From assembly GCA_016297965.1 (NCBI GenBank), contig JAEDDP010000001.1, positions 139,347 through 203,346 on the forward strand: a DNA stretch of 64,000 bases, read 5' to 3'. A program made the translations under genes and the position numbers. Shown here one piece after another: positions 8,349-64,000 of the stretch. The stretch is from Alphaproteobacteria bacterium (GTDB lineage: Bacteria; Pseudomonadota; Alphaproteobacteria; Rs-D84; CACZYB01). The notes under the pieces were generated by a model that saw only the letters and a program-made list of their open reading frames with translations, did not search any database and was not told the DNA's origin. Position 1 is the first letter of the stretch. Every line of letters starts with the position of its first letter.

Positions 8349-8438
8349 AGAAAGTTTCTTTACTTAAAAAAAATCCTCCATATTTGATGGGGGATTTTTT
8401 GTTGGTGAAAAAGTAAATTCTGTTTGAAATAAAAAAAA

Positions 8439-8470
8439 CACCGCCCAATTGGACGGTGAATTTTGTTTTT
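8439..8470. terminator. Intrinsic terminator of the CACCGCC...GGACGGTG family
   Basis: caccgcccaattggacggtg followed by ttttgttttt; same stem as at 13279-13300. Confidence 0.5.
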
Positions 8471-8485
8471 ACCACAGTGGGTAAA

Positions 8486-8902: not shown

Positions 8903-8977
8903 AGTTCTCTCCTTTTGTTGTTTGACAATCCTTACTTTCTAAATTAAACTAAAAGTAAATCTAATTGGAGTATAACA

Positions 8978-21808: not shown

Positions 21809-22411
21809 TTAGAAATTGTTTATTTCCTTTAACGCCATTTTTATAAGGTCGTTCATTCCAATCATTGGGTTTTTGTTTATAAGGTTCATTACAACCTCAA
21901 AACTTTGCGATCTGGTATAGCCAAGGTTGGAAAGGGCGGAAATTGCATCTTCGGCGATGGAATCGTTTTTCATTTCCCGTGAAATGCCGGCAAGTTCAAG
22001 GTTTATGTTTGTTTTTTGAACCTTGTCCTTTAATTCCTGAACTATACGTTCGGCGGTCTTTTTCCCAATGCCATTTGCCGTTGTGAATGAAACGGCATCA
22101 CCGGATAAAATAGCGGTGGAAATTTGTTGTGGGGTAAGGGCGGAAAGTATGGCAAGTCCGGCCTTTGGTCCGATACCCTGTACCAAAGTCAAAAGGTTAA
22201 AAAATTCGTGTTCGGTTTGGGTGGCAAAACCGTAAAGTGTGATACTGTCTTCACGTACTATTGTTTCAATCCAAAGTGTAAGAGGAGTGTTTAAGGTTAG
22301 TTTTGATATTGTCTTTTGTGGCACAAATACACCATAGCCAACACCGTTCACATCAAGTATTATTTGTGTTTCCGAAAGTGTGTCAACAATGCCCTTTAAT
22401 TTTGAAATCAT
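21809..22411 (-). CDS. ruvA: Holliday junction DNA helicase subunit RuvA (no adjacent ruvB)
   Basis: 200 aa; N-terminal OB domain ILDVNGVGYGVFVP, HhH motifs LVQGIGPKAG, C-terminal domain III. Confidence 0.9.
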   Translation of the reverse strand: MISKLKGIVDTLSETQIILDVNGVGYGVFVPQKTISKLTLNTPLTLWIETIVREDSITLYGFATQTEHEFFNLLTLVQGIGPKAGLAILSALTPQQISTAILSGDAVSFTTANGIGKKTAERIVQELKDKVQKTNINLELAGISREMKNDSIAEDAISALSNLGYTRSQSFEVVMNLINKNPMIGMNDLIKMALKEINNF

Positions 22412-24852: not shown

Positions 24853-24960
24853 AATGTTTATTGTATCATTTTTTTTCGTGAAGGGCAAGACCTATTTATC
24901 GTTAGTATTAAAAAAAAGCCCCCAATGAATGAGGGCAATGTTTTAAAAAGTGAAAGTTTG

Positions 24961-34065: not shown

Positions 34066-34157
34066 GTCGTTTGTTATCATAAAATATCCTTGATTATTTT
34101 CCTTTGCCTTTATATAATTCATTTTGGGTAAGGGTAATTTTTTATAAAGAGAGAAAA

Positions 34158-36893: not shown

Positions 36894-36896
36894 GTA

Positions 36897-50245: not shown

Positions 50246-50872
50246 TTAGAATAAACCAGCAAGTGAGTTTGCAATTCTTTGTTTTATTTGTGTGCTTGCT
50301 TCCTCAGGCGTTAGATTTACCCTTTTTGCATTTACGGTAAGCATTGTTGTTTGGGCGTTGTTTTTACCTTCGGTAATCCTTATATCTGTTTGAACATTGT
50401 ATGTGATGTCCTTTGTATTTGCATCAAAATACATTGTTGCAAGTCCCGCAGCAAGTCCGGCACCAATACCTGCCAATCCGTCATTTTTGTTTGCAACGGC
50501 AAGTCCAACTCCGGTTCCGGCAATAACGGCATCATTTTGTGCGTCCATTGCACTTGATCTGTTTATTGAAATTGCCCTTACAACATTTGCTTGGAGGATA
50601 AAGTTTGCATTTGCAGGGTTGGTTGTTATCTGGTATCCCTTGTATTCAAGGGCGCGTGTGATATATCCGTTTAGGTCGTTAAAGTTTTGGTTGTCGGATG
50701 TATTTCTTACCTGTACAAAGATTTTTGTGTTTTCCGGTACGGTTGGGTTTAACCATATTGTTTTATTCATATTGGTTGTGATTTCAAGATCGCTGTTCGC
50801 CATACGGGTATAGGTTCCGGAACATCCAGAAAGTAGGGCGATTGTTGATAAAATAGTTATAAATTTTTTCAT
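50246..50872 (-). CDS. traT: TraT-like surface-exclusion / complement-resistance outer-membrane lipoprotein
   Basis: Lipobox LLSGC; block TIWLNPT...IFVQVRNTSDNQ...KGYQITTNPANANFILQANVVRA closely parallels F-plasmid TraT (TIWLEPA...FLQIKNTSDKD...[23 protein letters not shown]); glycine-zipper segment AGTGVGLAVA...GIGAGLAAGLA. Confidence 0.8.
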   Translation of the reverse strand: MKKFITILSTIALLSGCSGTYTRMANSDLEITTNMNKTIWLNPTVPENTKIFVQVRNTSDNQNFNDLNGYITRALEYKGYQITTNPANANFILQANVVRAISINRSSAMDAQNDAVIAGTGVGLAVANKNDGLAGIGAGLAAGLATMYFDANTKDITYNVQTDIRITEGKNNAQTTMLTVNAKRVNLTPEEASTQIKQRIANSLAGLF

Positions 50873-52732: not shown

Positions 52733-53326
52733 ATGGATAATCAAAAAGTAAAGGTAAATCTTTTGGGTGAAGAAAATGGTAATGGTACAGATGTTCTTGA
52801 TTTGGCACTTAAAACTAATGGTGCGGAAAAGGAATATAATATCATTCTTCATAACAGATTTTTGACTATTGATAAAGAGGTAAATAAAAGGTTAAGGTCT
52901 GCGGGATTTACCAATGAACAGGCACAACTTGTTTACGATTTGGCAGGTGAAATTATGATACCAAAGATTCAAGAAGTGGTTGAAGAATTTCGTGCATATC
53001 GCGAGCTTGCAAAATTGGAAAATTATTTTGGTGGTGAAGAACGTTTTGATGAAATATCAAGACAGATTTCTATGTGGGCGGAAAAAAATGTTCCACCGGA
53101 AATTTATCAATCTTTGAACTCTTCTTTTTATGGTGTGATTGCATTGTATAATATGATGACTTCCAATGAACCAAAAGTTATGGCAAAGTCTGGGGAAACA
53201 CAGGAAGTTATCACCGAGAAAAAATTGAAAGAGATGATGCAAGATCCAAAATATTGGAGAGATGGTGATAAGGATTTTATTAAAAAAGTTGATGACGGTT
53301 TTAAATTTTTATATGGTGATGAATAA
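52733..53326 (+). CDS. T7 gp9-like capsid scaffolding protein
   Basis: Acidic helical 197-aa protein; C-terminus MMQDPKYWRDGDKDFIKKVDDGF parallels the T7 gp9 C-terminus AMSDPRYRTDANYRRQVEQKVIDSNF; located upstream of the capsid gene. Confidence 0.6.
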   Translation: MDNQKVKVNLLGEENGNGTDVLDLALKTNGAEKEYNIILHNRFLTIDKEVNKRLRSAGFTNEQAQLVYDLAGEIMIPKIQEVVEEFRAYRELAKLENYFGGEERFDEISRQISMWAEKNVPPEIYQSLNSSFYGVIALYNMMTSNEPKVMAKSGETQEVITEKKLKEMMQDPKYWRDGDKDFIKKVDDGFKFLYGDE

Positions 53327-53437
53327 AATTTTTATTAAAAAAAATTGAAAAAATTTTATTTTTTTATATTTTGCTGTTGCAGTATTGCTTTTTGTGTGGT
53401 ATATTGTATCTGTCTTTTGTTTAATAAGGAGAGAGAT

Positions 53438-53902
53438 ATGTTTAAAAGTATAATTAAAAGAGCTTCTAAACCAACCGCAAAAAAGGTTGCCGTAAAATCA
53501 GAAGAAAAAAAAGTTGTTGCTAAAAAAACAACAGTTGCAAAAAAGCCAGTAGCTAAAAAAGTTGCAGTTAAAAAAACAGCAGTTGCAAAGAAACCAGTTG
53601 CTAAAAAAGTAACAGTTAAAAAAGCGACAGTTGCAAAGAAACCAGTTGCTAAAAAAGTTGCAGTTAAAAAAACAACAGTTGCAAAGAAACCAGTTGCTAA
53701 AAAAGTGACAGTTAAAAAGGCAACAGTTGCAAAGAAACCAGTTGCTAAAAAAGTAACAGTTAAGAAAGCAACAGTTGCAAAGAAACCAGTTGCTAAAAAA
53801 GTAACAGTTAAAAAAATCGTTGTAAAGAAAGCTTCTGTTAAGGTTGCATCAGTTAAAAAAGCTGTGAAACCTGTTGCAAAAAAAAAAGTAGCAAAGAAGT
53901 AG
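53438..53902 (+). CDS. Histone H1 / Hc1-like lysine-rich repeat protein
   Basis: SD aaggagag before ATG; about six tandem 16-aa repeats KKPVAKKV(T/A)VKK(A/T)TVA encoded by 48-bp DNA repeats. Confidence 0.65.
   Translation: MFKSIIKRASKPTAKKVAVKSEEKKVVAKKTTVAKKPVAKKVAVKKTAVAKKPVAKKVTVKKATVAKKPVAKKVAVKKTTVAKKPVAKKVTVKKATVAKKPVAKKVTVKKATVAKKPVAKKVTVKKIVVKKASVKVASVKKAVKPVAKKKVAKK
53515..53830 (+). repeat. 48-bp tandem coding repeats (about 6 copies) inside the H1-like gene
   Basis: gttgcaaagaaaccagttgctaaaaaagt(a/g)acagttaaaaaagc(g/a)aca recurring with a 48-bp period. Confidence 0.8.
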
Positions 53903-53910
53903 AAGTTTCT

Positions 53911-54471
53911 TTGGTAGTTTCTAATCCTAACAAGGATAAGAAAGAGGTTGGTGAAAATAAGAAAACATCCTTTTTCGGTTCTTTGTTAGGATTTTTTTAT
54001 AATCATACAAAGGGAATTATAAAAACAATTTTAATACTTTCAGTATTGGTTGCATTTACAACTTCGTTTATGAAAGAATTAGAAGTGTATGCGGATATGC
54101 GTTTTGCAATGAATCCTATTGAAATTATTTTTATTGGTTTTGTTGATGCTGTTTTTAATCTTGTAAAATACTTTATACCTTTCCTTTTTGTATGCTTGAT
54201 TATTAAATTTATTATGATTAAATCTAGGAAGTTAAAGGTTGAATACATATTTAACAGACAATTTAAAATGCAAATCTTGATTGCCTTTTTGCTTTCGTTT
54301 GCATTTGCAGTTTTGTTTTATACTGATGTGTTGGCGATTGCCACATATTCACCACAACTTGTGAAATCATCGGTTGATATTTTTATGTTGTCATTCTTTT
54401 CAATACTTTTGACATTTACATCTTTGTTTGGTTTGTTGGATGGTGTTGATACCGTGATTTCAAAGAAATAG
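53911..54471 (+). CDS. Hypothetical polytopic membrane protein (moron between scaffold and capsid genes)
   Basis: 186 aa, 4 predicted TM helices. Confidence 0.45.
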   Translation: MVVSNPNKDKKEVGENKKTSFFGSLLGFFYNHTKGIIKTILILSVLVAFTTSFMKELEVYADMRFAMNPIEIIFIGFVDAVFNLVKYFIPFLFVCLIIKFIMIKSRKLKVEYIFNRQFKMQILIAFLLSFAFAVLFYTDVLAIATYSPQLVKSSVDIFMLSFFSILLTFTSLFGLLDGVDTVISKK

Positions 54472-54583
54472 TTAAGTTCTGGATTAAATTATACTTTTGT
54501 CCGTCCCTTTTTGGGGCGGATTTTTTTTATGGGCGAAGTTAAATTTGCCCTTTTCGTTTAATTAAAATATAGGAGATTTATAT

Positions 54584-55414
54584 ATGTCAGTTTCTATTGA
54601 TAAAGTGTTTATAAAACAATTTGAAGCGGATGTTCATCTTGCTTTTCAACAAATGGGAACAAAACTTCGTTCCACAGTTAGAACAAAAAATGATGTGAAG
54701 GGAAGTTCAACTACATTCCAAAAAATTGGAAAGGGTATTGCCAGTGTGAAGGCAAGACATGGACTTGTTCCTGTTATGAATTTGGATCATACACCGGTTG
54801 AATGTGTATTGACAGATTATTATGCGGGTGATTGGGTTGATGAACTTGATGAATTAAAAACAAATGTTGATGAACGTCGTGTTGTTGCATCTGCCGGTGC
54901 GTATGCCCTTGGTCGCAAAAGTGATGAACTTATCATTGCAGAATTAAACAAGGCAACAAATTCAGTTCAGACATCATCAGCGGGTCTTACAAAATTAAAG
55001 ATTTTTGAGGCATTGGAATTTTTGAATGCAAATGATGTGCCAGATGATGGTCAAAGATTTGGTGTTGTTGGTGTTCATCAATGGAACGAACTTTTAAGTA
55101 TGGATGAATTTTCAAAGGCAAGTTATGTCGGCGATACCTATCCTTTACTTAAAGGTACAGAATCAAGAAAATGGATGGGCGTAAATTGGATTTTGCATAA
55201 TTCACTTCCATGCAGTGAAGGTGAAAGAAGTTGTTTCATTTATCATAAAAATGCGATTGGTCATGCATCTGGATGTGAAGTTAAAACAGATATTTCATGG
55301 CATGGTGAAAGGGCAGCTCACTTTATTTCAAATTGTATGAGTCAAGGAGCAACGCTTATTGATAATCAAGGAATTGTGAAAATTATGTGTGATGATGACG
55401 CGGTTATTGCCTAA
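54584..55414 (+). CDS. T7 gp10-like major capsid protein (short form)
   Basis: Pattern VFIKQFEADVHLAF...RSTVR...F......DELKTNVDERRVVASAGAYALGRKSDELIIAELN parallels T7 gp10A LFLKVFGGEVLTAF...RHMVR...DAMNHYDVRSEYTSQLGESLAMAADGAVLAEIA; follows the scaffold gene and precedes the gp11/gp12 homologs. Confidence 0.6.
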   Translation: MSVSIDKVFIKQFEADVHLAFQQMGTKLRSTVRTKNDVKGSSTTFQKIGKGIASVKARHGLVPVMNLDHTPVECVLTDYYAGDWVDELDELKTNVDERRVVASAGAYALGRKSDELIIAELNKATNSVQTSSAGLTKLKIFEALEFLNANDVPDDGQRFGVVGVHQWNELLSMDEFSKASYVGDTYPLLKGTESRKWMGVNWILHNSLPCSEGERSCFIYHKNAIGHASGCEVKTDISWHGERAAHFISNCMSQGATLIDNQGIVKIMCDDDAVIA

Positions 55415-55449
55415 AATAAAACAAAAATAAAAAAAGGAGAAAAAATATT

Positions 55450-55710
55450 ATGAGTATGAATTCAAAAAATTTGTCGGTTCTTGCCTATTCAAACGGTTTT
55501 ACATTTTGGCATTATAAAACAGAAGATGCAAAGGATGCGGTTGTTGCGGCGAATTATTTTAATGATGTTGCAAATATTTTTAATGTTGGTGATTTGATTG
55601 TGGCATCAATGGATATTGCAGGTACAATGACAACCGGAATGTTTGCGGTTACTTCAATTGCTTCTGGTGTTGTTTCAATTTCAAGTATTATTCCATCTGC
55701 AAGTGTGTAA
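55450..55710 (+). CDS. Small hypothetical virion-module protein
   Basis: 86-aa ORF with RBS between the capsid and gp11-like genes. Confidence 0.35.
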   Translation: MSMNSKNLSVLAYSNGFTFWHYKTEDAKDAVVAANYFNDVANIFNVGDLIVASMDIAGTMTTGMFAVTSIASGVVSISSIIPSASV

Positions 55711-55753
55711 ATAAAATAAATATCTTTTAATTTCAAGGTTCCATTTTTTTTGG

Positions 55754-56338
55754 GTGGAACCTTTTTTTAATGAGGAGAAAGAGATGAGTTTTTCAAGTAT
55801 AGATTTGTGTTCAAAGGCACTGAATAAAATTGGTGCGAATTCTATTGTTTCATTTGATGAGGGAACACCGGAGGCGGAAATATGTGGAAGTTTGTATTCT
55901 ACATTAAAGTATAAATTGCTTTCAATTTTTTCATGGGGGTTTGCAACATCAATTAAAAAACTTAATCAAGTTGTTGAAGAAGAGCAAAATGAGTATGGTT
56001 ATACATTTGCTTTGCCAAGTGATTTTATAAGGGCTTTGAAAATATCCTCAAATTCTCCTTATAAAATTTTGGGAAATTATTTATATTGTAATGATGAAGA
56101 GGTGGTATTGACCTATATTGCAAATGTTGGTGAGGAATATTTTTCACCACTTTTTGTATCGGCCTTTATTTATTTGATGGCGGCGGAATTGTCTGTATCA
56201 CTTCTTAACGATACATCAAAATATTCGTTGTTTTACAAATTGTTTAATTCGGAAATACGACAGGCAAAATCAATAGACAGTCAACAGGAAACACCAAAGG
56301 TTTTGGGCGATTTTCCGTTGATTTCAGCGAGAGGTTAG
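55754..56338 (+). CDS. T7 gp11-like tail tubular protein A
   Basis: ~190 aa (T7 gp11 is 196 aa); SIDLCSKALNKIGANSIVSFDEG...LLSIFSWGFA parallels T7 gp11 [20 protein letters not shown]...IQSRGWTF. Confidence 0.6.
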   Translation: MEPFFNEEKEMSFSSIDLCSKALNKIGANSIVSFDEGTPEAEICGSLYSTLKYKLLSIFSWGFATSIKKLNQVVEEEQNEYGYTFALPSDFIRALKISSNSPYKILGNYLYCNDEEVVLTYIANVGEEYFSPLFVSAFIYLMAAELSVSLLNDTSKYSLFYKLFNSEIRQAKSIDSQQETPKVLGDFPLISARG

Positions 56339-56348
56339 GTAGGTAATT

Positions 56349-58250
56349 ATGAAGCAAACTATGAGTATAAGTACTTTTAATTATGGTGAAATTTCATCTG
56401 GGCTTTTTGGTCGGGGAAATTTTGATGCATATAAAAGTGCGGCAATGAAGCTTATGAATATGGATGTTATTCCGACAGGTGGTATTGAACGACGGGATGG
56501 ACTTAGGTATGTTGATACCCTTTCATCAAGGGGAAAAATTGTTTCGTTTGAATATTCTTCGGATAAGGAGTTGATATTATTTTTTGGAAATAATGTTATT
56601 GATATTTATGAAGATGATGTGAAGGTTAAAAGCCTTGTTTCCCCATACAAAGTTGATGATTTGAAAAATATTTGTTGGTGTCAAAAGGCAAACCAGCTTT
56701 TTATCGTGCATCCGGATATTGAACCGCAAATTATAAAATATGATGCGTTGATGGATGAATGGAGTATTTTTCCGTGGGTGTATGCGACAAATGAAAAATT
56801 TGGATATTCTTGTCAACCGTTTAACAGGTTTGATGATACCGTTGGTATTTCAATTACTCCATCGGCAAAGACCGGAGAAATAACACTTAAATCCAGTGCA
56901 AAACTTTTTACCGCAAATTATGTTGGGGTAAGGTTGAATTTGGATGGTGGTGAGGTGCTTATAACCTCAATTGTATCGGATGTAAGTGCAAAGGCGACGG
57001 TAAAGTCAAATTTGACGGCTGTTACGGCGGATGCAAACTGGCAAGAACAGACTTTTTCCGCATTTCGTGGTTATCCAAAAAGTATTGCATTCCATCAAAA
57101 CAGATTGGTTATTGGTGGTTCAAAAAGTCTTCACAACAGATTGTGGCTTTCGTGTACGGGAAAGCTTTTGAATTTTGATTTGGGGACTGGGCTTGACGAT
57201 GAAGCAATAGAGTTTGATATTTTTTCGGATAAGGTTAATGAAATTGTTGGGGTATTTTCGGGACGACATTTACAGGTGTTTACATCGGATGCGGAATGGA
57301 TGGTGTCCGGTGTGCCACTTACTCCGTCAAATATTTCCGTTTCACAACAAACAAAAATTGGGTCCGTTTCGGACAGGTATATTCCACCAAAGTTGGTTGA
57401 AGGTTCAACAATATTTGTTGCAAGAAACAAGCGGGAAATTCGTGAATTTTTCTATGGTGATTTAACGGAAAATTATTCGTCGGAAGATTTGATTTTGCTT
57501 TCAAATCATCTTTTATGTTCGCCAATAGAACAAGATTACAGTATTAAAAAAAGGACGCTTTATGTTGTGCAAAATGATGGAACACTTGCTGTTTTGATTA
57601 TAAACAAGACCAACGGAATAAATGCATGGGTGCAATATCAAACGGACGGAAAATTTATTTCTGTTGCCGTGTTGGTTGATAAAGTTTATGCGATTGTTGA
57701 ACGAGATGGTACCTACTTTTTGGAAATTTTTGATGGGGATGTTTCATCGGATTGTTCATCAAAATATTGTTTTGAAAATGAGGTGGAAGAAATTGAAAAT
57801 CTTTCACGATTTAATGGAAAAGAGGTCGTTGTAAATGCGGATGGCTTTATTTATGAAATGGTTGTATCGGATGGTAAAATCAATTTGCCGAAACCTTCAA
57901 AAAATGTTGTTGTTGGTTTGTCCTTTACTCATTTGTATTGTCCTTTACCTGTGTTTATCAATTCAAGTTATTTGCCAAAGGCGGTACGATTATTAGAGTT
58001 GAACCTTCGGGTGATGGAAACTCCTCTTTTACAGGTGGATACCGGTGGCGGACTTAAAAACATAACGTTTTTGAATTTTGACAGTGGGAACAAGTTTGAT
58101 GAAAGTCTTCCTTGTTTTACCGGTGATTTAAAAATTCGTGGGTATGGATTTATACGAAATTATACAATACCACTTTTTAAAATACAGGGATGTAAACCGT
58201 ATAAATTAAAAATTTTGAATGTGTCAATGTTAATTGATGTAATAAGATGA
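56349..58250 (+). CDS. T7 gp12-like tail tubular protein B
   Basis: 633 aa; block AFHQNRLVIGGSKSLHNRLWLSCTGKLLNFD parallels T7 gp12 FFFRNRLGFLSGENIILSRTAKYFNFYP; N-terminal ISxxNxGEISxG pattern similar to gp12 SIKNLKGGISQQ. Confidence 0.6.
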   Translation: MKQTMSISTFNYGEISSGLFGRGNFDAYKSAAMKLMNMDVIPTGGIERRDGLRYVDTLSSRGKIVSFEYSSDKELILFFGNNVIDIYEDDVKVKSLVSPYKVDDLKNICWCQKANQLFIVHPDIEPQIIKYDALMDEWSIFPWVYATNEKFGYSCQPFNRFDDTVGISITPSAKTGEITLKSSAKLFTANYVGVRLNLDGGEVLITSIVSDVSAKATVKSNLTAVTADANWQEQTFSAFRGYPKSIAFHQNRLVIGGSKSLHNRLWLSCTGKLLNFDLGTGLDDEAIEFDIFSDKVNEIVGVFSGRHLQVFTSDAEWMVSGVPLTPSNISVSQQTKIGSVSDRYIPPKLVEGSTIFVARNKREIREFFYGDLTENYSSEDLILLSNHLLCSPIEQDYSIKKRTLYVVQNDGTLAVLIINKTNGINAWVQYQTDGKFISVAVLVDKVYAIVERDGTYFLEIFDGDVSSDCSSKYCFENEVEEIENLSRFNGKEVVVNADGFIYEMVVSDGKINLPKPSKNVVVGLSFTHLYCPLPVFINSSYLPKAVRLLELNLRVMETPLLQVDTGGGLKNITFLNFDSGNKFDESLPCFTGDLKIRGYGFIRNYTIPLFKIQGCKPYKLKILNVSMLIDVIR

Positions 58251-58263
58251 AAGGATTAAAAAA

Positions 58264-58683
58264 ATGGGTACAAGTGTGGCTGTGGCAAGTGTTATTGCCA
58301 AAACAGCATTGGATTACAAAGATGCAAAAGATGAAAAAAAACAACTTAAAAAAGAAAAAGAGTTGAAAGAAGCGGAAATAAAAAAGAAAAAGGAAATTTA
58401 CGAGCAGGAAAAAACAGACCTTTTGAAGGCAAAAATTGCATCAAAAAAGGCAAGTCTTGCCGCAAATGGACTTGGGACTACGGATGCTTCGTCGGCGGTG
58501 TTATTGGGAAGTATGGAAAAGGAGACCGATGAAGATATTGCAAACAATGAATATTTTTCGGATTTAAATCTTTCGGCAAATGAAATGAATTATAATTACA
58601 AGAAAAATAAAAACTTGCTTGCACGGCGAAAGATGGGACTTAATGCCATAAATTCCGCATCGGATGGGCTTAAATTGTTATAA
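58264..58683 (+). CDS. Small K/E-rich coiled-coil protein in the gp13 (internal virion protein A) position
   Basis: 139 aa (T7 gp13 is 138 aa); assignment by position and size only. Confidence 0.3.
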   Translation: MGTSVAVASVIAKTALDYKDAKDEKKQLKKEKELKEAEIKKKKEIYEQEKTDLLKAKIASKKASLAANGLGTTDASSAVLLGSMEKETDEDIANNEYFSDLNLSANEMNYNYKKNKNLLARRKMGLNAINSASDGLKLL

Positions 58684-58686
58684 AAA

Positions 58687-59286
58687 ATGAGCAGGAAATT
58701 AAGTTTTGAGAAATTTTTGATAAATTGGAATAAGGTTCAGGAGGTCAAAACTCCGGAACATCATTTGCGTATTGCAAGGTGGCTTGAAAATATTTATTCA
58801 TCCGAGACAAGGCGCGGGCTTTTGATGGCATTCCGTAGTAGTGGTAAATCAACAATTGTTGGAGTGTTTTGTGCGTGGCTTTTGTATAAAAATCCGAATA
58901 CGCGAATTTTGGTTGTGGCGGCGGATACTGTGTTGGCACGAAAGATGGTTAGGAATGTAAAGCGGATTATTGAAACGAATCCCTTGCTTTGTGATATTTG
59001 TCCGAAAAAGAAGACAGAGTGGGCGTCGGGAAGTTTTACCGTTGTTCGGGATAAGGAGCTTCGTGATCCGTCAATGCTTGCCGTTGGATTGATGTCAAAT
59101 GCCACGGGAAGCAGGGCGGATGTGATTATTTGCGACGATGTTGAGGTGCCAAAAAATTGTGATACATACCAAAAAAGAATCGATTTGAGGGAGAAATTGT
59201 TGGAATTTAACTTCATTTTGGTGCCGGATGGGATGCAAATTTTTATCGGAACTCCGCATACTTTGGATACTATTTACAAAGTTTAA
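58687..59286 (+). pseudogene. Truncated terminase large subunit (ATPase domain only, nuclease domain missing)
   Basis: Walker A SSGKST, Walker B ADVIICDDVE, coupling motif FIGTPHTLDTIY; 199 aa whereas intact TerL is ~450-600 aa; ORF ends just before the CU-rich hairpin elements and tRNA-Phe. Confidence 0.65.
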
Positions 59287-59370
59287 AGAAAAAAGTTGGG
59301 AATGAAGTGTTTGATTTTATGGGGAAAATATTCTTTGTTTGTACAAATAAAAATTTTTCACAAAAATATA

Positions 59371-59398
59371 TTGACAAATGAAATGAAATTTGTATAAT
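59371..59398 (+). promoter_or_regulatory. Consensus sigma-70 promoter (TTGACA - 16 nt - TATAAT) with A/T-rich upstream element
   Basis: ttgacaaatgaaatgaaatttgtataat. Confidence 0.5.
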
Positions 59399-59404
59399 GA
59401 AGTC

Positions 59405-59533
59405 AATTCGTTAATACGAAAAAGAAATTTGCCGAGACGACCCCTCATTTCGGCAAATCTGGTCAAAGGCCAGCAACCCCCTAAGTCATTCCCTCCTTAT
59501 TTTCTCTCTCTCCTCGACTTAGGGGATTTTTTT
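59405..59533 (+). ncRNA. Candidate ~130-nt sRNA with a CU-rich (anti-Shine-Dalgarno-like) terminator loop
   Basis: 5' hairpin ttgccgaga...ttcggcaa; terminal 10-bp stem cccctaagtc/gacttagggg enclosing loop attccctccttattttctctctctcctc; T8 run. Confidence 0.4.
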
Positions 59534-59839
59534 TATTTGTAAAATAAGTTTAAAAAAATGAATTTTTTGTTTGCTATTTTGTTTTTAAATTGGTAAAAAT
59601 ATTTTCGTTGTTTGAAAACATCAGAATCGATTCCTTTTTTAATGTAAAAGAATCGGTTTTTTGGTGGTTTTTTAATGGTGTTTTATGCTTGACAATCGTA
59701 TCTTTACAAAAGATTCTTTGAAAATGCAACTGTTTGAATTTACAGATGAATTTATATTTGTCTTTGTTAAATAAAGTTGCCAAAAAAATAAACACTTGAC
59801 TTTTTTTGTCAATGGTATTAAGAATCTTCGCATAAAGCA

Positions 59840-59943
59840 AATTTAATAGTTATGTTCTTTTAAGTTTGTTTGAAAGTTATTCCCTGTTGCGTTCCTTTTC
59901 TCTCCTTTCCTCCTTCTCTCCTCGCAACGGGGAATTTTTTTTA
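59840..59943 (+). ncRNA. Second CU-rich-loop hairpin element homologous to 59477-59533 (sRNA or terminator module)
   Basis: stem tccctgttgcg/cgcaacgggga enclosing loop ttccttttctctcctttcctccttctctcct; T8 run; weak upstream promoter-like TTGACT at 59796. Confidence 0.35.
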
Positions 59944-60000
59944 TCAAAAGTGTTAAAAAGTGCAAAAAAAATCCCCACATAAAGTGAGGATGAATTTTTA

Positions 60001-60076
60001 TGGTGGCGAGGGGCAGAATCGAACTGCCGACACAAGGATTTTCAGTCCTTTGCTCTACCAACTGAGCTACCTTGCC
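60001..60076 (-). tRNA. tRNA-Phe (anticodon GAA), CCA encoded
   Basis: minus-strand read ggcaaggtagctcagttggtagagcaaaggactgaaaatccttgtgtcggcagttcgattctgcccctcgccacca: cloverleaf with D-arm gctc/gagc, anticodon loop ctGAAaa, T-arm ggcag-ttcgatt-ctgcc, 3' CCA. Confidence 0.9.
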
Positions 60077-60207
60077 ACAAGATGTGTAAATTTATAACCT
60101 ATATTTTCACAAAACGCAACAAAAAAGTTTACTTTTTGTAATAATAGCTTGTTTTGATGACAAAATTATGGTATTATTGTACATATAGTTTTAGGAGAAA
60201 TTGGGAT

Positions 60208-62064
60208 ATGAGAAAAGTTTTTGTTTCGGTGTTGGTGCTTTCCGCTTTTGTGGCGAATATGGATTGTTATGGTGCAAGGAAAAGAAAATCATCCAAAAAT
60301 GCCAGAACGGCAAGCATTCGTGAACGTTCTGTAAAAAGGATGGTTTCGTCAACGGCGTCTTCGTATTCATTGGCAACATCATCGTACAGTTCTTCACTTC
60401 TTGAAAACCTTTCCCGATTTCAAAGTTCCGTTTTTGGTGAAAAGTTGATGTATGGAAAGTCGTATGCTCTTCAAGATATGTTTACGATTGCGACACATTC
60501 CTATTATTACAAAAATGGGTCGCAGGCGGAATTAAAGGAACAATTTTGTTTCGGTCCATATATGAAACTTACCGGTGTTGGGGCAAGCAGTTCCGCAACA
60601 TCTTCGGTGGTGGAAGCAAACGGTTCGTTGCAATGTGTTGATTTGGAAAAGGATACAATTTATTCTCTTTCATTATTGGATGCGACCGATGGGCAAATTG
60701 AAAATGCACTTCATACGTCTTCGGTGTCCGGTGTGGTAAGTGGAGACCAAAGGGTTGCCTATGTTTCGCGGTCCGGAAATCCGATTGCAACACAATATTT
60801 TAATTCCGAAAAATATATTGATGTAAGTGAGTATGCAAAGAAAATTAACGAAGCGGTTGCAATGGCGAAGTCTTCGTGTGGTTCATTTAAAAGTGATATG
60901 GATAAGTTGAAAAGTCAACTTGGGTTTGGGGTTGCACTTTCATCCGGAATTGGTGTGGCATTGTCGGGGGCAAGTACCGGTGTTGGTATTTACAATATAA
61001 AAAAGACAAATGAAGTTCAATCCACAATTAAGAAACAAGAAAATATGCAAAAGAACCTTGAAGAAATTGCAAGGTCAAGTGATACCGGTTATCAGGAGGT
61101 GAAGGATAAAAATTCAGGAAAGTTTGATGTAAGTCAAAAGGCAGAGAAAGAGATTATTGCAGATAAAAGAACTTATAAAACAAAGAATGAAATATCGAAA
61201 ATTACGGATTTAAGAAGTTTGAATGCAACTTTGGTGAATAAAGAGAGTTGTGAACATATTGAAAGTTTTAAAGAGTATTGTGATAAATTGAATAATAAAT
61301 GTAAAGATTTGCCTTCCAGTGAGAATGTTAACGATTATTTGAAAGGAATGCAAGCCTATTCCGGTGGTGATGAATATTATGAAGGATGTTTTTCTGGTTC
61401 TGATGAAAACTTAACATTTGTAGATAGTATTTATTATGAATTGAAGGATGGGGAAAAAACTGATAAAGAATGTACAGGTTCTGATAAAAGTAAGTGTACA
61501 GAAGAACCTAAAAAAAATTGTGTTGAGTTAAAGAATGATTTTAATGCTTTTGAAAACTTAACATTTGTAGATAGTATTTATTATGAATTGAAGGATGGGG
61601 AAAAAACTGATAAAGAATGTACAGGTTCTGATAAAAGTAAGTGTACAGAAGAACCTAAAAAAAATTGTGTTGAGTTAAAGAATGATTTTAATGCTTTGTC
61701 GGAAGATGCAAAAAGAAGATGGATTTTCCAAAAGGATTATAATACTTATTCAGATTTAAAGAAACAATGTGATGTTGCGAATGGTAAGGTGGATACGGTT
61801 AATAAGTCAAGCGAACAATACAAAAAGTATGTTGACAGTGTTGATTCATCAATGAAGACATCCCGTAATTTGGATATTGTACAGGCAGGATTAAGTGGTG
61901 CGTCCACAATTGCCAGTGGTGTTTCTCTTGGGTTTTCCGTTTCCGCAATTGGTACGGTTGGTGATGCGATTGATGAACTTTCAAAATGTAATGCTGCCAT
62001 TTCAAAGTTAAGAAATGTTTATGGTGAATACAAGGCGGAATTAGAGGCGGATGAGGAGGAATAA
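60208..62064 (+). CDS. Secreted/surface protein with RS-rich post-signal motif and an exact 49-aa internal duplication
   Basis: SD taggagaaa; signal peptide then GARKRKSSKNARTASIRERS; Ser-rich tract; C-terminal Gly/Ala/Ser-rich ASGVSLGFSVSAIG domain shared with the next gene. Confidence 0.65.
   Translation: MRKVFVSVLVLSAFVANMDCYGARKRKSSKNARTASIRERSVKRMVSSTASSYSLATSSYSSSLLENLSRFQSSVFGEKLMYGKSYALQDMFTIATHSYYYKNGSQAELKEQFCFGPYMKLTGVGASSSATSSVVEANGSLQCVDLEKDTIYSLSLLDATDGQIENALHTSSVSGVVSGDQRVAYVSRSGNPIATQYFNSEKYIDVSEYAKKINEAVAMAKSSCGSFKSDMDKLKSQLGFGVALSSGIGVALSGASTGVGIYNIKKTNEVQSTIKKQENMQKNLEEIARSSDTGYQEVKDKNSGKFDVSQKAEKEIIADKRTYKTKNEISKITDLRSLNATLVNKESCEHIESFKEYCDKLNNKCKDLPSSENVNDYLKGMQAYSGGDEYYEGCFSGSDENLTFVDSIYYELKDGEKTDKECTGSDKSKCTEEPKKNCVELKNDFNAFENLTFVDSIYYELKDGEKTDKECTGSDKSKCTEEPKKNCVELKNDFNALSEDAKRRWIFQKDYNTYSDLKKQCDVANGKVDTVNKSSEQYKKYVDSVDSSMKTSRNLDIVQAGLSGASTIASGVSLGFSVSAIGTVGDAIDELSKCNAAISKLRNVYGEYKAELEADEEE
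61405..61698 (+). repeat. Perfect 2 x 147-bp in-frame tandem duplication inside the 60208-62064 gene
   Basis: gaaaacttaacatttgtagatagtatttattatgaattgaaggatgggg...aatgattttaatgcttt present twice consecutively (61405-61551, 61552-61698). Confidence 0.85.
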
Positions 62065-62065
62065 A

Positions 62066-62749
62066 ATGAAACAAGTAAGTAAAATATTGTTGTGTTTGGC
62101 GGTGTCGGTTTATTCCTTTGATACAATGGCGAAGTTGTCATCAAATTCCGTTAAAAATCAGGTTGTGAATATTGAGTATGCACTTTCAAAGTGTAATTTC
62201 AGTGCGAACGTGCTTAACGAAATTAAAAGTAAGACCGTGGGCGGGGCTGTTTCGTCAGGCGTTGCGACCATTGGTTCCGGTGTGGCAACGACAACCTCTA
62301 TTATCGCGGCGGTGAAAAGTTCAAAGTATGAGTATGAGTCAACGAATAGAGACAATTCCGCTGGGACAACAAATACTACCAATACGACCACTACCGAGAA
62401 TGAAGGTGAAAATCAGAATGAAGGTGAAAATCAGAATGAAGGTGAAAATCAGAATGAAGGTGGAAAAAAGAACGGAGGTGGAAAAAAGAACGGAGGAAAA
62501 GGAAACACGACAAATAATACAAGTAGATATGATACCTCAACAGAAGACAGGCGTGATGGTGTGAAAAAACTTAATTCTTCGTTGAAAAATTTGCGGGTGG
62601 CGTCGGCGATTGCGTCGGGTGTGGCAACCGGTGCGAACCTTGTGACCGTGACATTAAGTGGGACTTCGGTTTCGCAACTTGGGAAATTGATGGATGATGC
62701 CGATGATTGTGAAGGCGCACTTAATTCAATTATTATTTCGGAAAAATAA
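62066..62749 (+). CDS. Secreted/surface protein with hexapeptide (EGENQN) repeats and a C-terminal domain shared with the upstream gene
   Basis: SD gaggagga; signal peptide; Gly/Ala/Ser-rich AVSSGVATIGSGVATT and AIASGVATGANLVTVTLSG segments; 18-bp repeats. Confidence 0.65.
   Translation: MKQVSKILLCLAVSVYSFDTMAKLSSNSVKNQVVNIEYALSKCNFSANVLNEIKSKTVGGAVSSGVATIGSGVATTTSIIAAVKSSKYEYESTNRDNSAGTTNTTNTTTTENEGENQNEGENQNEGENQNEGGKKNGGGKKNGGKGNTTNNTSRYDTSTEDRRDGVKKLNSSLKNLRVASAIASGVATGANLVTVTLSGTSVSQLGKLMDDADDCEGALNSIIISEK
62402..62497 (+). repeat. 18-bp tandem repeats (3 perfect + 2-3 diverged copies) encoding EGENQN / GGKKNG
   Basis: gaaggtgaaaatcagaat x3 then ggtggaaaaaagaacgga x2. Confidence 0.85.
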
Positions 62750-62956
62750 AAAACGAATCTTTGTTTAAATAATAATAAAAATCCGGTTTGAAAGTCAATT
62801 TCAATGCCGGTTTTTATTTTGTGCTTGGTTTGTTTTCCTATATTCATAAAAATAATTGGAAAAATTTGTATTTTTAGTTTTTATCTTCTTAACTTTTACC
62901 TTTTTTTATGGTATCATTAAGGAATGAAGTCAAATAAGGAAGTAAGGGGAGAAAAA

Positions 62957-64000
62957 ATGATTGATGGAAATTTCGGATATAAATCAGGTGATGACGATAT
63001 TCAAAATTTTATTCCAAAAATTACGGTTATGGGTGTTGGCGGTGCAGGTTGTAATGCCGTTAATAATATGATTGCCCAAGGAATTGATGGTGTTGATTTT
63101 ATTGTGGCAAATACCGATGCGCAATCCTTACTTCAATCAAAGGCACCAAAAAAAATTCAACTTGGTAAACAAACAACAAAGGGATTTGGTGCGGGTTCCC
63201 GACCAGAGGTGGGACAAAAGGCCGCCGAGGAATCATCCAGTGAAATTACAGATGCGATAAAAAATGCAAACATTTTGTTTTTGACCGCCGGAATGGGTGG
63301 TGGAACCGGAAGTGGTGCGATGCCGGTTATTGCCGAACTTGCCCGTGAAAAGGGTATTTTGACCGTTGCAATTATTACTACTCCATTTGAATTTGAAGGA
63401 AAGAAAAAAGAAAAAATTGCACGTGAGGCATTGGAAAGATTGGTTCCAAATGTGGACTCCTATATCGTTCTTCCAAACCAAAATCTTTACCGTGTTGTTG
63501 ATAAACAAATGACCTTTTTGAATGCGTTTAAGGTGTCCGATAATGTCCTTTATGAAGGGGTAAGAAATATTACTGATTTGATACGGATACCGGGGACAAT
63601 CAACCTTGATTTTGCGGATATTCGTGCGGTTATGGAAAACAGTGGTCGTACGATTATTGGTACTTCTATTCAATCCGGTGTTGATAGGGCGATAAAGGCG
63701 GTTGATGGAGTCCTTATGAACCCAATGCTTCAAGGAAATGATGTGCGTGGGGCAAGGTCGGTCCTTGTAAACATTACGGCAAATCCGGAAAACCTTTCGT
63801 TGGATGAACCGGAAACTATTATGAATAATATTCGTTCTTCTATTGATAGTGATGAAACAAATTTTTATTTGGGAACTTGTTTTGATGTGTCAATGGGGGA
63901 TGATTTAAAGGTGGCGATTATTGCGACCGGACTTAATGAGGCGAGTGCCGGTTCGTTTATTCCATCGGCACATAAATATACTTCATCTTCGTTTACAGGC
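62957..64000 (+). CDS. ftsZ: Cell division GTPase FtsZ (3'-truncated by window end)
   Basis: GVGGAGCNAVNNM, tubulin signature GGGTGSG, T7 loop NLDFADIR; ORF runs off the window; no ftsA upstream. Confidence 0.9.
   Translation, partial: MIDGNFGYKSGDDDIQNFIPKITVMGVGGAGCNAVNNMIAQGIDGVDFIVANTDAQSLLQSKAPKKIQLGKQTTKGFGAGSRPEVGQKAAEESSSEITDAIKNANILFLTAGMGGGTGSGAMPVIAELAREKGILTVAIITTPFEFEGKKKEKIAREALERLVPNVDSYIVLPNQNLYRVVDKQMTFLNAFKVSDNVLYEGVRNITDLIRIPGTINLDFADIRAVMENSGRTIIGTSIQSGVDRAIKAVDGVLMNPMLQGNDVRGARSVLVNITANPENLSLDEPETIMNNIRSSIDSDETNFYLGTCFDVSMGDDLKVAIIATGLNEASAGSFIPSAHKYTSSSFTG

What the first reader, a model, noticed from the sequence alone, without database searches (positions are those of the whole stretch)
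60208..62749. Surface-protein gene pair with an exact 147-bp tandem duplication and 18-bp SSRs, as candidate variable or contingency loci
Gene 60208-62064 contains two consecutive, base-identical 147-bp copies (61405-61551, 61552-61698), in frame, duplicating a 49-aa Cys-containing module (NLTFVDSIYYELKDGEKTDKECTGSDKSKCTEEPKKNCVELKNDFNA). Identity at every base implies a very recent duplication or ongoing unequal recombination. The co-oriented downstream gene (62066-62749) has 18-bp in-frame repeats (3 perfect EGENQN units plus GGKKNG units) and shares a Gly/Ala/Ser-rich C-terminal domain with the first gene. Both have strong RBSs and signal peptides. The pattern is typical of size-variable surface antigens.
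Basis: seen in the sequence. Interest (0 to 1): 0.65.

Follow-up and report, generated by a model that had tools for sequence, protein, structure and literature searches.

The report
Hypervariable secreted-protein pair, one private duplication
Two neighbouring genes of an uncultured gut alphaproteobacterium encode exported proteins of an undescribed family whose middle sections differ strongly between otherwise near-identical strains; the exact 147-bp duplication is real but is a one-off recent event in this genome, not a recurrent switch.

Summary
The sequence observation holds. There is also an 18-bp array at 62397-62484.

I compared about 50 alleles of gene A and about 30 of gene B, from metagenome strains that appear to be the same species (sequence flanking the variable regions is 97-100% identical). 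Both genes have a sharply bounded hypervariable centre:
- Gene A's variable region has dN 0.06-0.43, against 0.009 or less in its N-terminal domain.
- dN/dS there is 0.45-2.0, against 0.10 or less in that domain.
- dS is also raised, the blocks are mosaic, and A and B alleles are reassorted.

This fits old alleles maintained and shuffled by recombination, as in exposed antigens.

None of the 49 other A alleles has any internal repeat. Two independent samples carry the same unit (147/147 identical) as a single copy. The duplication is therefore a private, very recent event, and all units are multiples of 3, so there is no on/off switching.

A and B have no Pfam, NCBIfam, PHROG or PDB match. They share an architecture found in the 16 family members examined: Cys, a Gly/Ala/Ser-rich segment, an insert of 13 to about 590 aa, a second Gly/Ala/Ser-rich segment, then Cys. 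I infer a disulfide-clamped, glycine-zipper-like hairpin that displays the variable insert.

Surface location was not tested.

The parts
60001..60076 (-). tRNA-Phe (GAA). It forms the upstream boundary of the A-B block and holds the same position in four related species.
   Evidence: ARAGORN; Rfam tRNA, 68.8 bits; same position in L002, L004 and L007.
60208..62064 (+). Gene A, 618 aa. It is an exported protein of an uncharacterised family.
   Evidence: ORF. No Pfam, NCBIfam or PHROG family and no PDB relative. About 50 alleles from apparently conspecific strains. Orthologues sit at the same locus in L002, L003, L004 and L007.
60208..60276 (+). Predicted Sec signal peptide of A (residues 1-23, cleavage ...CYGA|RKRK). 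It is followed by a basic stretch and then a Ser/Thr-rich linker up to about residue 62.
   Evidence: Hydrophobic N-terminus, Kyte-Doolittle 1.68. The cleavage site and linker were read by eye. Orthologues show the same D-x3-A|[RK] pattern. No predictor was run.
60394..60912 (+). Conserved N-terminal domain of A (about residues 63-235). It is beta-rich and contains the invariant EQFCFGPYM motif and Cys114/Cys143.
   Evidence: Almost invariant among the within-species alleles, and motifs kept in relatives at 29-36% overall identity. dN/dS 0-0.10. AF2 pLDDT 60-80 with strands.
60877..60993 (+). First arm of A: Cys224, 13 residues, then Gly/Ala/Ser-rich segment 238-262. The segment has two i+4 ladders of small residues (G239-A243-G247-A251-A255 and G241-S245-G249-S253-T257).
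   Evidence: Hydropathy peak 1.44. Residues invariant across the family. The rule of one Cys 5-17 aa upstream of odd-numbered segments holds across the family.
61063..61764 (+). Hypervariable, Cys-rich central region of A (residues 286-519, including the duplication).
   Evidence: Nucleotide identity to conspecific loci drops to 5-90%. dN 0.06-0.43 and dN/dS 0.45-1.97. Block types 8/6/7, 18 combinations, four-gamete violations. Most Cys positions are kept.
61404..61550 (+). 147-bp duplication, copy 1 (49 codons, 3 Cys).
61551..61697 (+). 147-bp duplication, copy 2, identical at 147/147 bases to copy 1.
   Evidence: Absent from 49 other alleles. Single copy with an identical unit in L044 and L045.
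61876..61989 (+). Second arm of A: Gly/Ala/Ser-rich segment 557-585, 8 residues, then Cys594.
   Evidence: Hydropathy peak 1.35. Invariant residues. Mirrored Cys rule. Aligns to B's second arm.
62066..62749 (+). Gene B, 227 aa. It is a short paralogue-like partner, translationally coupled to A.
   Evidence: ORF. 32 relatives. No family match. A B-like gene follows the A-like gene in L002, L003, L004, L007 and L050.
62192..62314 (+). First arm of B: Cys43 plus Gly/Ala/Ser-rich segment 58-83.
62324..62560 (+). Hypervariable, low-complexity central region of B (residues 87-165).
   Evidence: Two allele classes; central insert 33-68 aa. Nucleotide identity 30-100%. dN up to 0.7.
62397..62500 (+). 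18-bp in-frame repeat array (3 x EGENQN, then 2 x GGKKNG).
   Evidence: TRF, 4.9 copies at 92%.
62591..62710 (+). Second arm of B: Gly/Ala/Ser-rich segment 176-202 plus Cys215.
62774..62818 (+). Terminator-like hairpin followed by a U-run. It ends the A-B operon before ftsZ.
   Evidence: RNA fold -16.3 kcal/mol, z = -5.35, none of 200 shuffles as stable.
58687..59286 (+). Context: N-terminal half (199 aa) of a split T7-like terminase large subunit. It is the last gene of the phage-derived cluster upstream.
   Evidence: NF033889 model positions 1-189 of 500, E 4e-77. The C-terminal half is encoded after ftsZ and portal in L001.
62957..64000 (+). Context: ftsZ, which runs off the end of the window.
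   Evidence: Translation. Tubulin/FtsZ_C Pfam hits on the full gene in L001.

Best explanation
Genes A and B form a two-gene operon: tRNA-Phe, then A and B (translationally coupled), then a terminator, then ftsZ. The host is an uncultured, gut-associated alphaproteobacterium. The two proteins are exported members of an undescribed family built from a unit of this form: Cys, about 13 aa, a Gly/Ala/Ser-rich glycine-zipper-like segment, an insert, a second such segment, about 9 aa, Cys.

Shown:
- The two segments and their flanking Cys are mirrored and conserved in the 16 family members examined.
- The insert between them ranges from 13 aa to about 590 aa.
- In this species the inserts of both A and B are hypervariable, mosaic and reassorted, while the rest of each gene is almost invariant.
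- The 147-bp duplication is a private derivative of an allele that exists as a single copy in other samples.

Inferred:
- The two segments pair as an antiparallel hairpin, clamped at its base by a disulfide between the flanking Cys and embedded in the outer membrane, in the way 2TM glycine-zipper hairpins of SlyB/YfgH-type proteins are.
- The insert sits at the hairpin tip, facing outward, where phages, host immunity or competitors select for diversity.
- Diversity is generated mainly by homologous recombination between strains, anchored in the conserved ends, which maintains old alleles (balancing or negative-frequency-dependent selection).
- In-frame duplication (147 bp) and slippage (18 bp) add occasional length variants.

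The duplication adds 3 Cys, giving an odd total of 15 in the mature protein. It may therefore be a transient variant rather than a favoured one.
For: Variation:
- Identity profile: flanks 97-100%, with two bounded islands.
- Nei-Gojobori estimates: A N-domain dN <=0.009, dS 0.03-0.10, dN/dS <=0.10. A variable region dN 0.06-0.43, dS 0.03-0.93, dN/dS 0.45-1.97, above 1 for the three closest pairs. B shows the same pattern.
- Mosaicism: 8/6/7 block types, 18 combinations among 50 alleles, 8 four-gamete violations between blocks V1 and V3.
- Similarity among A variable regions and among B variable regions is uncorrelated (Mantel r 0.16, p 0.09).

Duplication:
- None of the 49 other alleles has an internal repeat.
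- The single-copy form in L044 and L045 matches 265/267 bases across the unit and its flanks, and 147/147 within the unit.

Architecture:
- Mirrored Cys rule in 16 family members, with inserts of 13 to about 590 aa (sequences).
- Segment hydropathy 1.35-1.46.
- AF2 places long helices on both sides of each segment and small beta modules (pLDDT up to about 85) in the variable region.
- The same pattern of conserved ends and a divergent centre occurs in another species group (P0054 vs P0087: 74% / 27% / 59% identity).

Synteny and operon:
- The pair is conserved in synteny in four other species and occurs as a tandem triplet in L050.
- Terminator after B.

Precedent:
- Alpha-helical 2TM glycine-zipper hairpins sitting in the outer membrane (bioRxiv 10.64898/2025.12.22.696046, read).
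Against: - No localisation or topology data exist.
- The Gly/Ala/Ser-rich segments are only moderately hydrophobic (below the usual Kyte-Doolittle 1.6 threshold).
- They match no Pfam glycine-zipper model.
- AF2 confidence is low exactly at these segments (pLDDT 22-46) and for all of B (mean 33).
- The basic cluster right after A's signal peptide (RKRK...) is unusual for Sec substrates, by established knowledge. It could instead mean an N-terminal anchor with a different topology.
- Most dN/dS values in the variable regions are below 1, so positive selection is not demonstrated. Alignment error in indel-rich regions inflates both dN and dS.
- The DNA analysis rests on only six alleles.
- Seven of the 13 A-B pairs were paired by matching contig lengths, which is an inference.
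Confidence: 0.5

Rival explanations
1. One reading: these are contingency or size-variable antigen loci, in which the 147-bp and 18-bp repeats change copy number at high frequency by unequal recombination or slippage, and this is the main source of variation.
For: - A perfect 2-copy repeat implies a recent event.
- The number of 18-bp EGENQN-type units differs among B alleles of the same class: 1, 2 or 3.
Against: - None of 49 other A alleles has any internal repeat of 25 aa or more.
- The identical unit occurs as a single copy in two independent samples.
- One whole class of B alleles lacks the 18-bp unit.
- Most variation is substitution and block replacement.
- All units are multiples of 3, so no frame switching is possible.
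Confidence: 0.1
2. Relaxed constraint: the central regions are linkers or disordered spacers of envelope proteins that drift and slip neutrally. No exposure or diversifying selection is involved.
For: - B's centre is low-complexity (N/T/G/K/E-rich) and AF2 gives no structure for it.
- Most dN/dS values in the variable regions are 0.3-0.9.
Against: - dS in the variable regions is also raised 5- to 10-fold or saturated relative to the flanks. Relaxed constraint on protein sequence does not explain this; old alleles or imported DNA do.
- A's variable region keeps most Cys positions and predicted beta modules with pLDDT 70-85, so it is a folded scaffold.
- dN/dS is above 1 for the three closest allele pairs.
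- The boundaries are sharp and the blocks are mosaic.
Confidence: 0.17
3. Secreted membrane-active effector or toxin pair. This could be a two-component alpha-helical pore former or a glycine-zipper membrane-damaging toxin, with B as a partner or immunity protein, polymorphic because of inter-bacterial or host arms races.
For: - It is a gene pair with shared modules.
- AF2 draws helix, hydrophobic Gly-rich tip, helix hairpins.
- Glycine-zipper motifs occur in membrane-damaging toxins (abstract of PMC12955049, listed).
Against: - There is no sequence or fold match to any toxin or pore former.
- The variable part is central, not a C-terminal toxin domain.
- A and B variable alleles do not co-vary (Mantel p 0.09), unlike cognate toxin-immunity pairs.
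- The locus is syntenic and vertically inherited next to ftsZ in several species.
Confidence: 0.1
4. The exact 147-bp duplication is an assembly artefact, and the real allele has a single copy.
For: - It is unique among 50 alleles.
- The single-copy version exists elsewhere.
- The window appears to come from an uncultured organism: all relatives found are MAGs or metagenome contigs.
- The two copies are perfectly identical.
Against: - Assemblers usually collapse exact tandem repeats rather than create them (general knowledge).
- The duplication is exactly in frame, and the flanking sequence is intact.
- No reads were available to test this.
Confidence: 0.1

Closest known systems
Wolbachia surface protein WSP (hypervariable regions shuffled by recombination)
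   Same: It is an alphaproteobacterial envelope protein in which conserved stretches flank hypervariable regions, and alleles are mosaics made by recombination. This description of WSP is from my own knowledge; the papers listed use wsp typing. The mosaic-with-conserved-ends pattern is what searches show here.
   Different: WSP is a beta-barrel outer-membrane protein. A and B have no Pfam match at all. They have one large central insert rather than four loops, and they come as a pair.
2TM glycine-zipper outer-membrane lipoproteins (SlyB, YfgH, OsmB; Rickettsia 17-kDa antigen family)
   Same: Both have paired Gly/Ala/Ser-rich segments with i+4 ladders of small residues, and both are exported to the envelope of a Gram-negative cell. 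In these lipoproteins the hairpin sits in the outer membrane. One family member was labelled 'YcfJ' by a source database.
   Different: There is no HMM match. A and B have no lipobox: Asp sits at -1 in A, and orthologues have no Cys there. Here the hairpin loop carries an insert of 13 to about 590 aa, and each arm has a conserved flanking Cys.
Tandem-repeat, size-variable surface proteins (Anaplasma marginale Msp1a, streptococcal alpha C/Rib, M proteins)
   Same: Both have in-frame, near-identical tandem repeats inside an exported protein. Descriptions of these known proteins are from my own knowledge.
   Different: Those proteins vary in repeat number between isolates. Here the 147-bp unit is duplicated in 1 of 50 alleles, and most diversity is not repeat-based.
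Simple-sequence contingency loci of Neisseria and Haemophilus
   Same: Both have short tandem repeats inside genes for envelope proteins.
   Different: Contingency repeats shift the reading frame or alter promoter spacing. Here the units are 18 and 147 bp, so the frame is always kept.
Balanced-polymorphism antigens (Borrelia OspC, Neisseria PorB/TbpB)
   Same: Both show divergent allele classes that are much older than the surrounding genome, with recombination in the flanks. dS in the variable regions is far above dS in the flanks.
   Different: There is no homology. The selective agent here is unknown, and the organism is a gut commensal known only from metagenomes.

Membership tests
Contingency locus (simple-sequence phase variation) | A repeat tract whose length change shifts the reading frame or promoter spacing | tested here: not met
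   The units are 147 and 18 bp, both multiples of 3, and lie inside the ORFs.
Contingency locus (simple-sequence phase variation) | Repeat number differs among isolates | tested here: inconclusive
   The 147-bp unit is a single copy in 49 of 50 alleles. The 18-bp unit occurs 0-3 times among B alleles.
Contingency locus (simple-sequence phase variation) | High-frequency reversible switching within a clonal population | not testable with these tools
   This needs reads or serial isolates.
Tandem-repeat size-variable surface antigen | An array of near-identical in-frame repeats whose number varies between strains | tested here: not met
   There are two copies in this genome only.
Tandem-repeat size-variable surface antigen | Surface localisation | not testable with these tools
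   Only signal peptides read by eye and hydropathy are available.
Glycine zipper 2TM / Rick_17kDa_Anti / Gly-zipper Pfam families | A match to the family HMM | tested here: not met
   There is no such hit at E <= 0.1 for A or B, nor at E <= 1 for ten relatives.
Glycine zipper 2TM / Rick_17kDa_Anti / Gly-zipper Pfam families | Two adjacent small-xxx-small helices forming a hairpin | tested here: inconclusive
   The i+4 ladders of small residues are readable in the sequence. Paired segments with loops as short as 13 aa occur in relatives. AF2 confidence there is low.
Glycine zipper 2TM / Rick_17kDa_Anti / Gly-zipper Pfam families | N-terminal lipobox (lipoprotein) | tested here: not met
   A has ...NMD-C with Asp at -1, and orthologues have no Cys there. 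B has TMA|K.
Polymorphic toxin plus immunity pair | A variable C-terminal toxin domain followed by a co-varying immunity gene | tested here: not met
   The variable region is central and the C-terminus is almost invariant. A and B variable alleles are uncorrelated.
Diversity-generating retroelement target | A template repeat near the variable region, and substitutions without indels | tested here: not met
   There is no second copy of the variable region in the window. Alleles differ by many indels. A reverse transcriptase gene was not specifically searched for; none appeared among the 27 window ORFs (incl. A and B) scanned against Pfam.
Cassette-based antigenic variation (Msp2 or pilE/pilS type) | Silent donor copies elsewhere in the genome | tested here: inconclusive
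   There are none in the 64-kb window (best outside hit E 0.006). The rest of the genome is not available.
Phage structural or accessory protein of the neighbouring phage-derived cluster | A match to phage protein families, or co-occurrence with the cluster | tested here: not met
   No PHROG hit and no BFVD fold match. An A/B-like triplet occurs in L050 with no phage-like gene annotated in the ~14-kb locus retrieved. About 45 IMG/VR copies of the cluster lack A and B.

The most novel reading that the evidence does not exclude
A and B would define a new class of Gram-negative surface-display proteins. A disulfide-clamped alpha-helical glycine-zipper hairpin would span the outer membrane and carry, at its outward loop, a freely exchangeable insert of 13 to about 590 aa. 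That would be a modular 'display stalk' on which a gut alphaproteobacterial lineage keeps a balanced polymorphism of Cys-rich domains. The operon sits in the cargo gap of a vertically inherited, split-terminase podovirus-like cluster that also holds ftsZ.
Probability: 0.18. Interest if true: 0.75.

Novelty: new variant of a known kind. Interest (0 to 1): 0.45.

Why it matters
Hypervariable exposed proteins mark the molecules through which a bacterium meets phages, host antibodies and competitors. For the uncultured gut and rumen Alphaproteobacteria almost nothing of this kind is known.

This locus gives three things:
- A ready strain-typing marker: two islands flanked by invariant priming sites.
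- A candidate target of phage or IgA selection.
- If the hairpin model is right, a new way of anchoring and displaying protein domains on a Gram-negative surface.

The duplication itself is of minor importance. It is one recent in-frame length variant.

Tried and rejected
- Family and structure searches found nothing for A or B: Pfam, NCBIfam and PHROGs, a PDB sequence profile (the best hit, E 0.074, is a compositional match to a PfEMP1 CIDR domain), and Foldseek against PDB and BFVD (nothing at E <= 0.001).
- AF2 of B was useless (pLDDT 33). AF2 of A was only moderate (54).
- A second word-indexed protein search with a profile added no new relatives.
- The first genome-contig scan, using the gene A profile, found no relative. 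The second, using FtsZ, gave the related species. No genome of the window's own species was retrieved in that collection (best FtsZ match 87%).
- A look-up of P0001, the window's own protein, returned no contig.
- JGI metagenome scans for the duplication junction and for a conserved 29-mer of gene A both gave zero hits. The species appears to be absent there, so the negative result for the junction says nothing.
- A search for silent donor cassettes in the window was negative.
- A search for other paralogues in the window by the Gly/Ala/Ser-segment rule found only A and B.
- The promoter scan was no better than shuffled sequence (9 sites against 9.2 expected), so no promoter is claimed.
- Inverted repeats next to the invertase in L051/L052 were weak, AT-rich matches only, so no invertible element is claimed.
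- Literature searches found no description of this family.
- Toxin-immunity, DGR and phage-tail readings were considered and rejected for the reasons given in the membership table.
Full report
OBSERVATION

The region was read directly. Tandem Repeats Finder reports a 147-bp unit, 2.0 copies, 100% matches, score 588, at 61404-61697. The duplication is in frame within gene A (60208-62064, 618 aa) and repeats a 49-residue module with three Cys. No microhomology flanks the junction.

Gene B (62066-62749, 227 aa) starts one base after A's stop codon. It contains an 18-bp array at 62397-62484 (4.9 copies, 92% matches): three perfect EGENQN units followed by two GGKKNG units. Shine-Dalgarno motifs precede both start codons (read). 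Both proteins start with a hydrophobic segment. A hairpin of -16.3 kcal/mol (z = -5.35) followed by a U-run comes after B. A and B are therefore an operon of their own, between tRNA-Phe (60001-60076, minus strand) and ftsZ (from 62957).

WHERE IT SITS

The window is chromosomal and Gram-negative. It encodes ThrRS, a class A PBP, FolD, TolB, pyruvate kinase, ribosomal protein S1, ClpX, RpoD, a Slam protein, TolC/HlyD/MacB and TraT.

The closest genomes found through FtsZ are metagenome-assembled Alphaproteobacteria from the rumen and animal gut, at 71-87% identity over the N-terminal 330 residues. No genome of the window's own species was retrieved there (best FtsZ match 87%).

Upstream of the operon lies a podovirus-like structural cluster: capsid PF19821, two tail proteins, and the N-terminal 199 aa of a T7-type terminase.

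RELATIVES AND POPULATION VARIATION

A protein search returned the window's own product plus about 49 close relatives (69-87% overall identity) and four distant ones. Gene B gave 32 relatives.

In the alignments, residues 1-285 and the last roughly 140 residues of A are almost invariant. The centre is a patchwork of substitutions and indels, with most Cys positions kept. B shows the same picture: invariant ends, and a centre of 33-68 aa that falls into two allele classes.

I fetched DNA for five other loci that appear to be conspecific and compared them with the window in 100-bp bins. Identity is 97-100% from 58000 to 61000 and from 62600 to 64000. It drops to 5-90% in two islands, about 61050-61800 and 62300-62600.

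Nei-Gojobori estimates:
- A, N-terminal domain: dN <= 0.009, dS 0.03-0.10, dN/dS <= 0.10.
- A, variable region: dN 0.06-0.43, dS 0.03-0.93, dN/dS 0.45-1.97. It is above 1 for the three closest pairs.
- A, C-terminal domain: dN/dS 0.03-0.31.
- B behaves in the same way.

Because dS is raised together with dN, relaxed constraint alone does not explain the islands. The alleles are older than the surrounding genome, or they were imported.

Dividing A's variable region into blocks gives 8, 6 and 7 sequence types in 18 combinations among 50 alleles. There are eight four-gamete violations between the first and third blocks. Similarity among A variable regions and among B variable regions is uncorrelated across 13 loci (Mantel r 0.16, p 0.09). 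Seven of those A-B pairs were inferred from equal contig lengths. Recombination therefore reshuffles alleles within A and between A and B.

No silent copies of any variable region occur elsewhere in the window.

THE DUPLICATION IN CONTEXT

After trimming alternative start codons, the 50 A alleles are 565-610 aa, and this one is 618 aa. A scan for internal repeats (25 aa or more at 80% identity or more) is positive only for the window's allele.

Two independent samples (L044 from a Logan assembly, L045 from an ENA assembly) carry the same 147-bp unit, identical at 147/147 bases, as a single copy. The window sequence with one copy removed matches them at 265/267 bases. The duplication is thus a derived, very recent, private event on a known allele background, or possibly an assembly error, which I could not test.

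It adds three Cys, bringing the mature protein from 12 to 15. An odd number of Cys in a disulfide-rich domain suggests a tolerated accident rather than a selected form; this is inference.

The 18-bp unit does differ in number among related B alleles (1, 2 or 3 units). It is absent from the other allele class.

WHAT THE PROTEINS ARE

Neither protein matches Pfam, NCBIfam or PHROGs, nor any PDB sequence.

An exhaustive HMMER search of 1.84 billion representative proteins found only 49 proteins at E <= 0.001, and 19 at E <= 1e-30. The two that carry a source label are hypothetical proteins of Alphaproteobacteria or Rickettsiales MAGs. Ten were scanned against Pfam, with no hit reaching a family cut-off.

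Reading these sequences and scoring them gives a simple rule. Every odd-numbered Gly/Ala/Ser-rich hydrophobic segment has one Cys 5-17 residues upstream. Every even-numbered one has one Cys 9-21 residues downstream. The distance between the two segments of a pair ranges from 13 aa (second unit of P0111) to about 590 aa (P0101). A and B each contain one such unit, and their hypervariable region is exactly the insert between the two segments.

The segments carry i+4 ladders of small residues (for example G239-A243-G247-A251-A255). They are moderately hydrophobic (Kyte-Doolittle 1.35-1.46). The C-terminal arms of A and B align weakly (hhalign E 1.4e-4).

AF2 gave a mean pLDDT of 54 for A. It shows a beta-rich N-terminal domain (pLDDT 60-80), long helices on either side of each Gly/Ala/Ser-rich segment (low confidence there), and small beta modules in the variable region (up to about 85). 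B was not predictable. Fold searches gave nothing significant.

The A-B pair is found at the same place (tRNA-Phe, A, B, ftsZ) in L002, L004 and L007, and directly upstream of ftsZ in L003. The N-terminal domain is 37-49% identical there. A more distant relative has three tandem paralogues of 976, 569 and 177 aa, with no phage-like gene annotated in the ~14-kb locus retrieved. In another species group the pattern of conserved ends and a divergent centre recurs (74% / 27% / 59% identity).

MECHANISM PROPOSED

Shown:
- The mirrored Cys and Gly/Ala/Ser-segment architecture.
- The variable-length insert between the segments.
- The hypervariability, mosaicism and reassortment of that insert.
- The private status of the duplication.

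Inferred:
- The two segments form an antiparallel hairpin, stapled by a disulfide at its base and embedded in the outer membrane. The analogy is with the alpha-helical 2TM glycine-zipper hairpins of SlyB/YfgH-type lipoproteins.
- The insert is then displayed at the outward loop and is selected for diversity.
- New forms arise mainly by homologous recombination anchored in the invariant ends.
- Rare in-frame duplication or slippage adds length variants.

Against the model:
- No HMM match to glycine-zipper families.
- Sub-threshold hydropathy of the segments.
- Low AF2 confidence at the segments.
- A conserved basic cluster directly after A's signal peptide, which is atypical for Sec substrates and could mean a different topology.
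- dN/dS mostly below 1.
- Only six DNA alleles analysed.

RIVALS

I considered four alternatives, scored in the rivals section:
- A true repeat-number contingency system.
- Neutral drift of linker regions.
- A membrane-active toxin or effector pair.
- An assembly artefact for the duplication.

The toxin-immunity reading is weakened because A and B alleles do not co-vary. The DGR and cassette readings are weakened by the indels and by the absence of template or donor copies in the window.

COMPARISON AND NOVELTY

The behaviour resembles known variable envelope antigens: Wolbachia WSP, OspC/PorB-type balanced polymorphisms, and tandem-repeat antigens. Membership of any of those families, or of the glycine-zipper Pfam families, was tested and not met.

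I therefore file this as a new variant of a known kind: an undescribed protein family with an unusual architecture doing something familiar.

SIDE OBSERVATION

The phage-like cluster around the operon is conserved in order in six other species. Capsid identity is 82-89% and portal 73-84%, at least as conserved as FtsZ.

Its T7-type terminase gene is split. The N-terminal half (model positions 1-189) lies at 58687-59286. The C-terminal half (positions 232-500, E 3.7e-36) lies downstream of tRNA-Phe, A, B, ftsZ and portal, beyond the window end. About 45 IMG/VR contigs of roughly 10 kb carry the same split cluster, with dnaB in the gap in the one locus inspected.

This looks like a vertically inherited, phage-derived element with host genes in its gap. 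It deserves its own study.

Noticed in passing
window 52733-59286, continuing beyond 64000 (seen in L001:14448-17912): A podovirus-like structural cluster (scaffold-like, capsid PF19821, two tail proteins, terminase, portal PF12236, Bbp19) is conserved in gene order in six other alphaproteobacterial species. Capsid identity is 82-89% and portal 73-84%, at least as conserved as FtsZ. No integrase or replication genes were seen. It looks like a vertically inherited, domesticated phage-derived element, possibly similar to a gene-transfer agent, with ftsZ embedded in it.
   Followed up: partly
window 58687-59286; L001:15955-16827; L058:4266-4898 and 8151-9074: The T7-type terminase large subunit is split into two genes. 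The N-terminal half matches model positions 1-189 and the C-terminal (presumed nuclease) half matches positions 232-500. In this lineage they are separated by tRNA-Phe, genes A and B, ftsZ and portal. In the one IMG/VR relative inspected (L058) they are separated by dnaB and a large HTH-containing ORF. The N-terminal half is 199 aa in the conspecific loci and in L002.
   Followed up: partly
window 34104-38381: A 929-aa ORF with no Pfam match lies directly upstream of a Slam (surface lipoprotein assembly modifier, PF04575) gene. It is a candidate Slam-dependent surface protein.
   Followed up: no
window 19991-21763 and 22411-24888 (minus strand): Two large ORFs (590 and 825 aa) have no Pfam match at E <= 1e-5. 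They do not have the Gly/Ala/Ser-segment architecture of A and B.
   Followed up: no
L051:6951-8861 and L052:612-2522: A distant family member with two hairpin units (P0111, 286 aa) lies next to a divergently oriented serine recombinase or invertase (PF00239 plus HTH_7). This hints at inversion-based control in that relative. Only weak, AT-rich inverted repeats were found.
   Followed up: partly
L050:5013-10669: A distant relative carries three tandem paralogues of the family (976, 569 and 177 aa). The largest has a Lys/Glu-rich insert of about 590 aa. They are followed by a 132-aa protein with a signal peptide and two hydrophobic helices, which looks pilin-like by eye. No Pfam hit is on record for it.
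   Followed up: no
window 59897-59935; L002 about 5650-5750: A polypyrimidine stretch followed by a short GC hairpin and a T-run (ctctcctttcctccttctctcctcgcaacgggga...) lies upstream of tRNA-Phe. It recurs in L002, seen through near-identical spurious ORF translations (KKIPRCEERRRKGEKRNATGNN). It may be a conserved non-coding element or a terminator.
   Followed up: no
window 50246-50872 (minus strand): A TraT-family complement-resistance or surface-exclusion lipoprotein gene sits at the upstream edge of the phage-like cluster. It is conserved in L001.
   Followed up: no
L006:5689-9962: In the most distant of the syntenic species, tRNA-Phe is on the plus strand directly before ftsZ. No A or B homologue is detectable between the terminase N-terminal half and ftsZ. 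The pair is therefore lineage-specific cargo at this site.
   Followed up: partly
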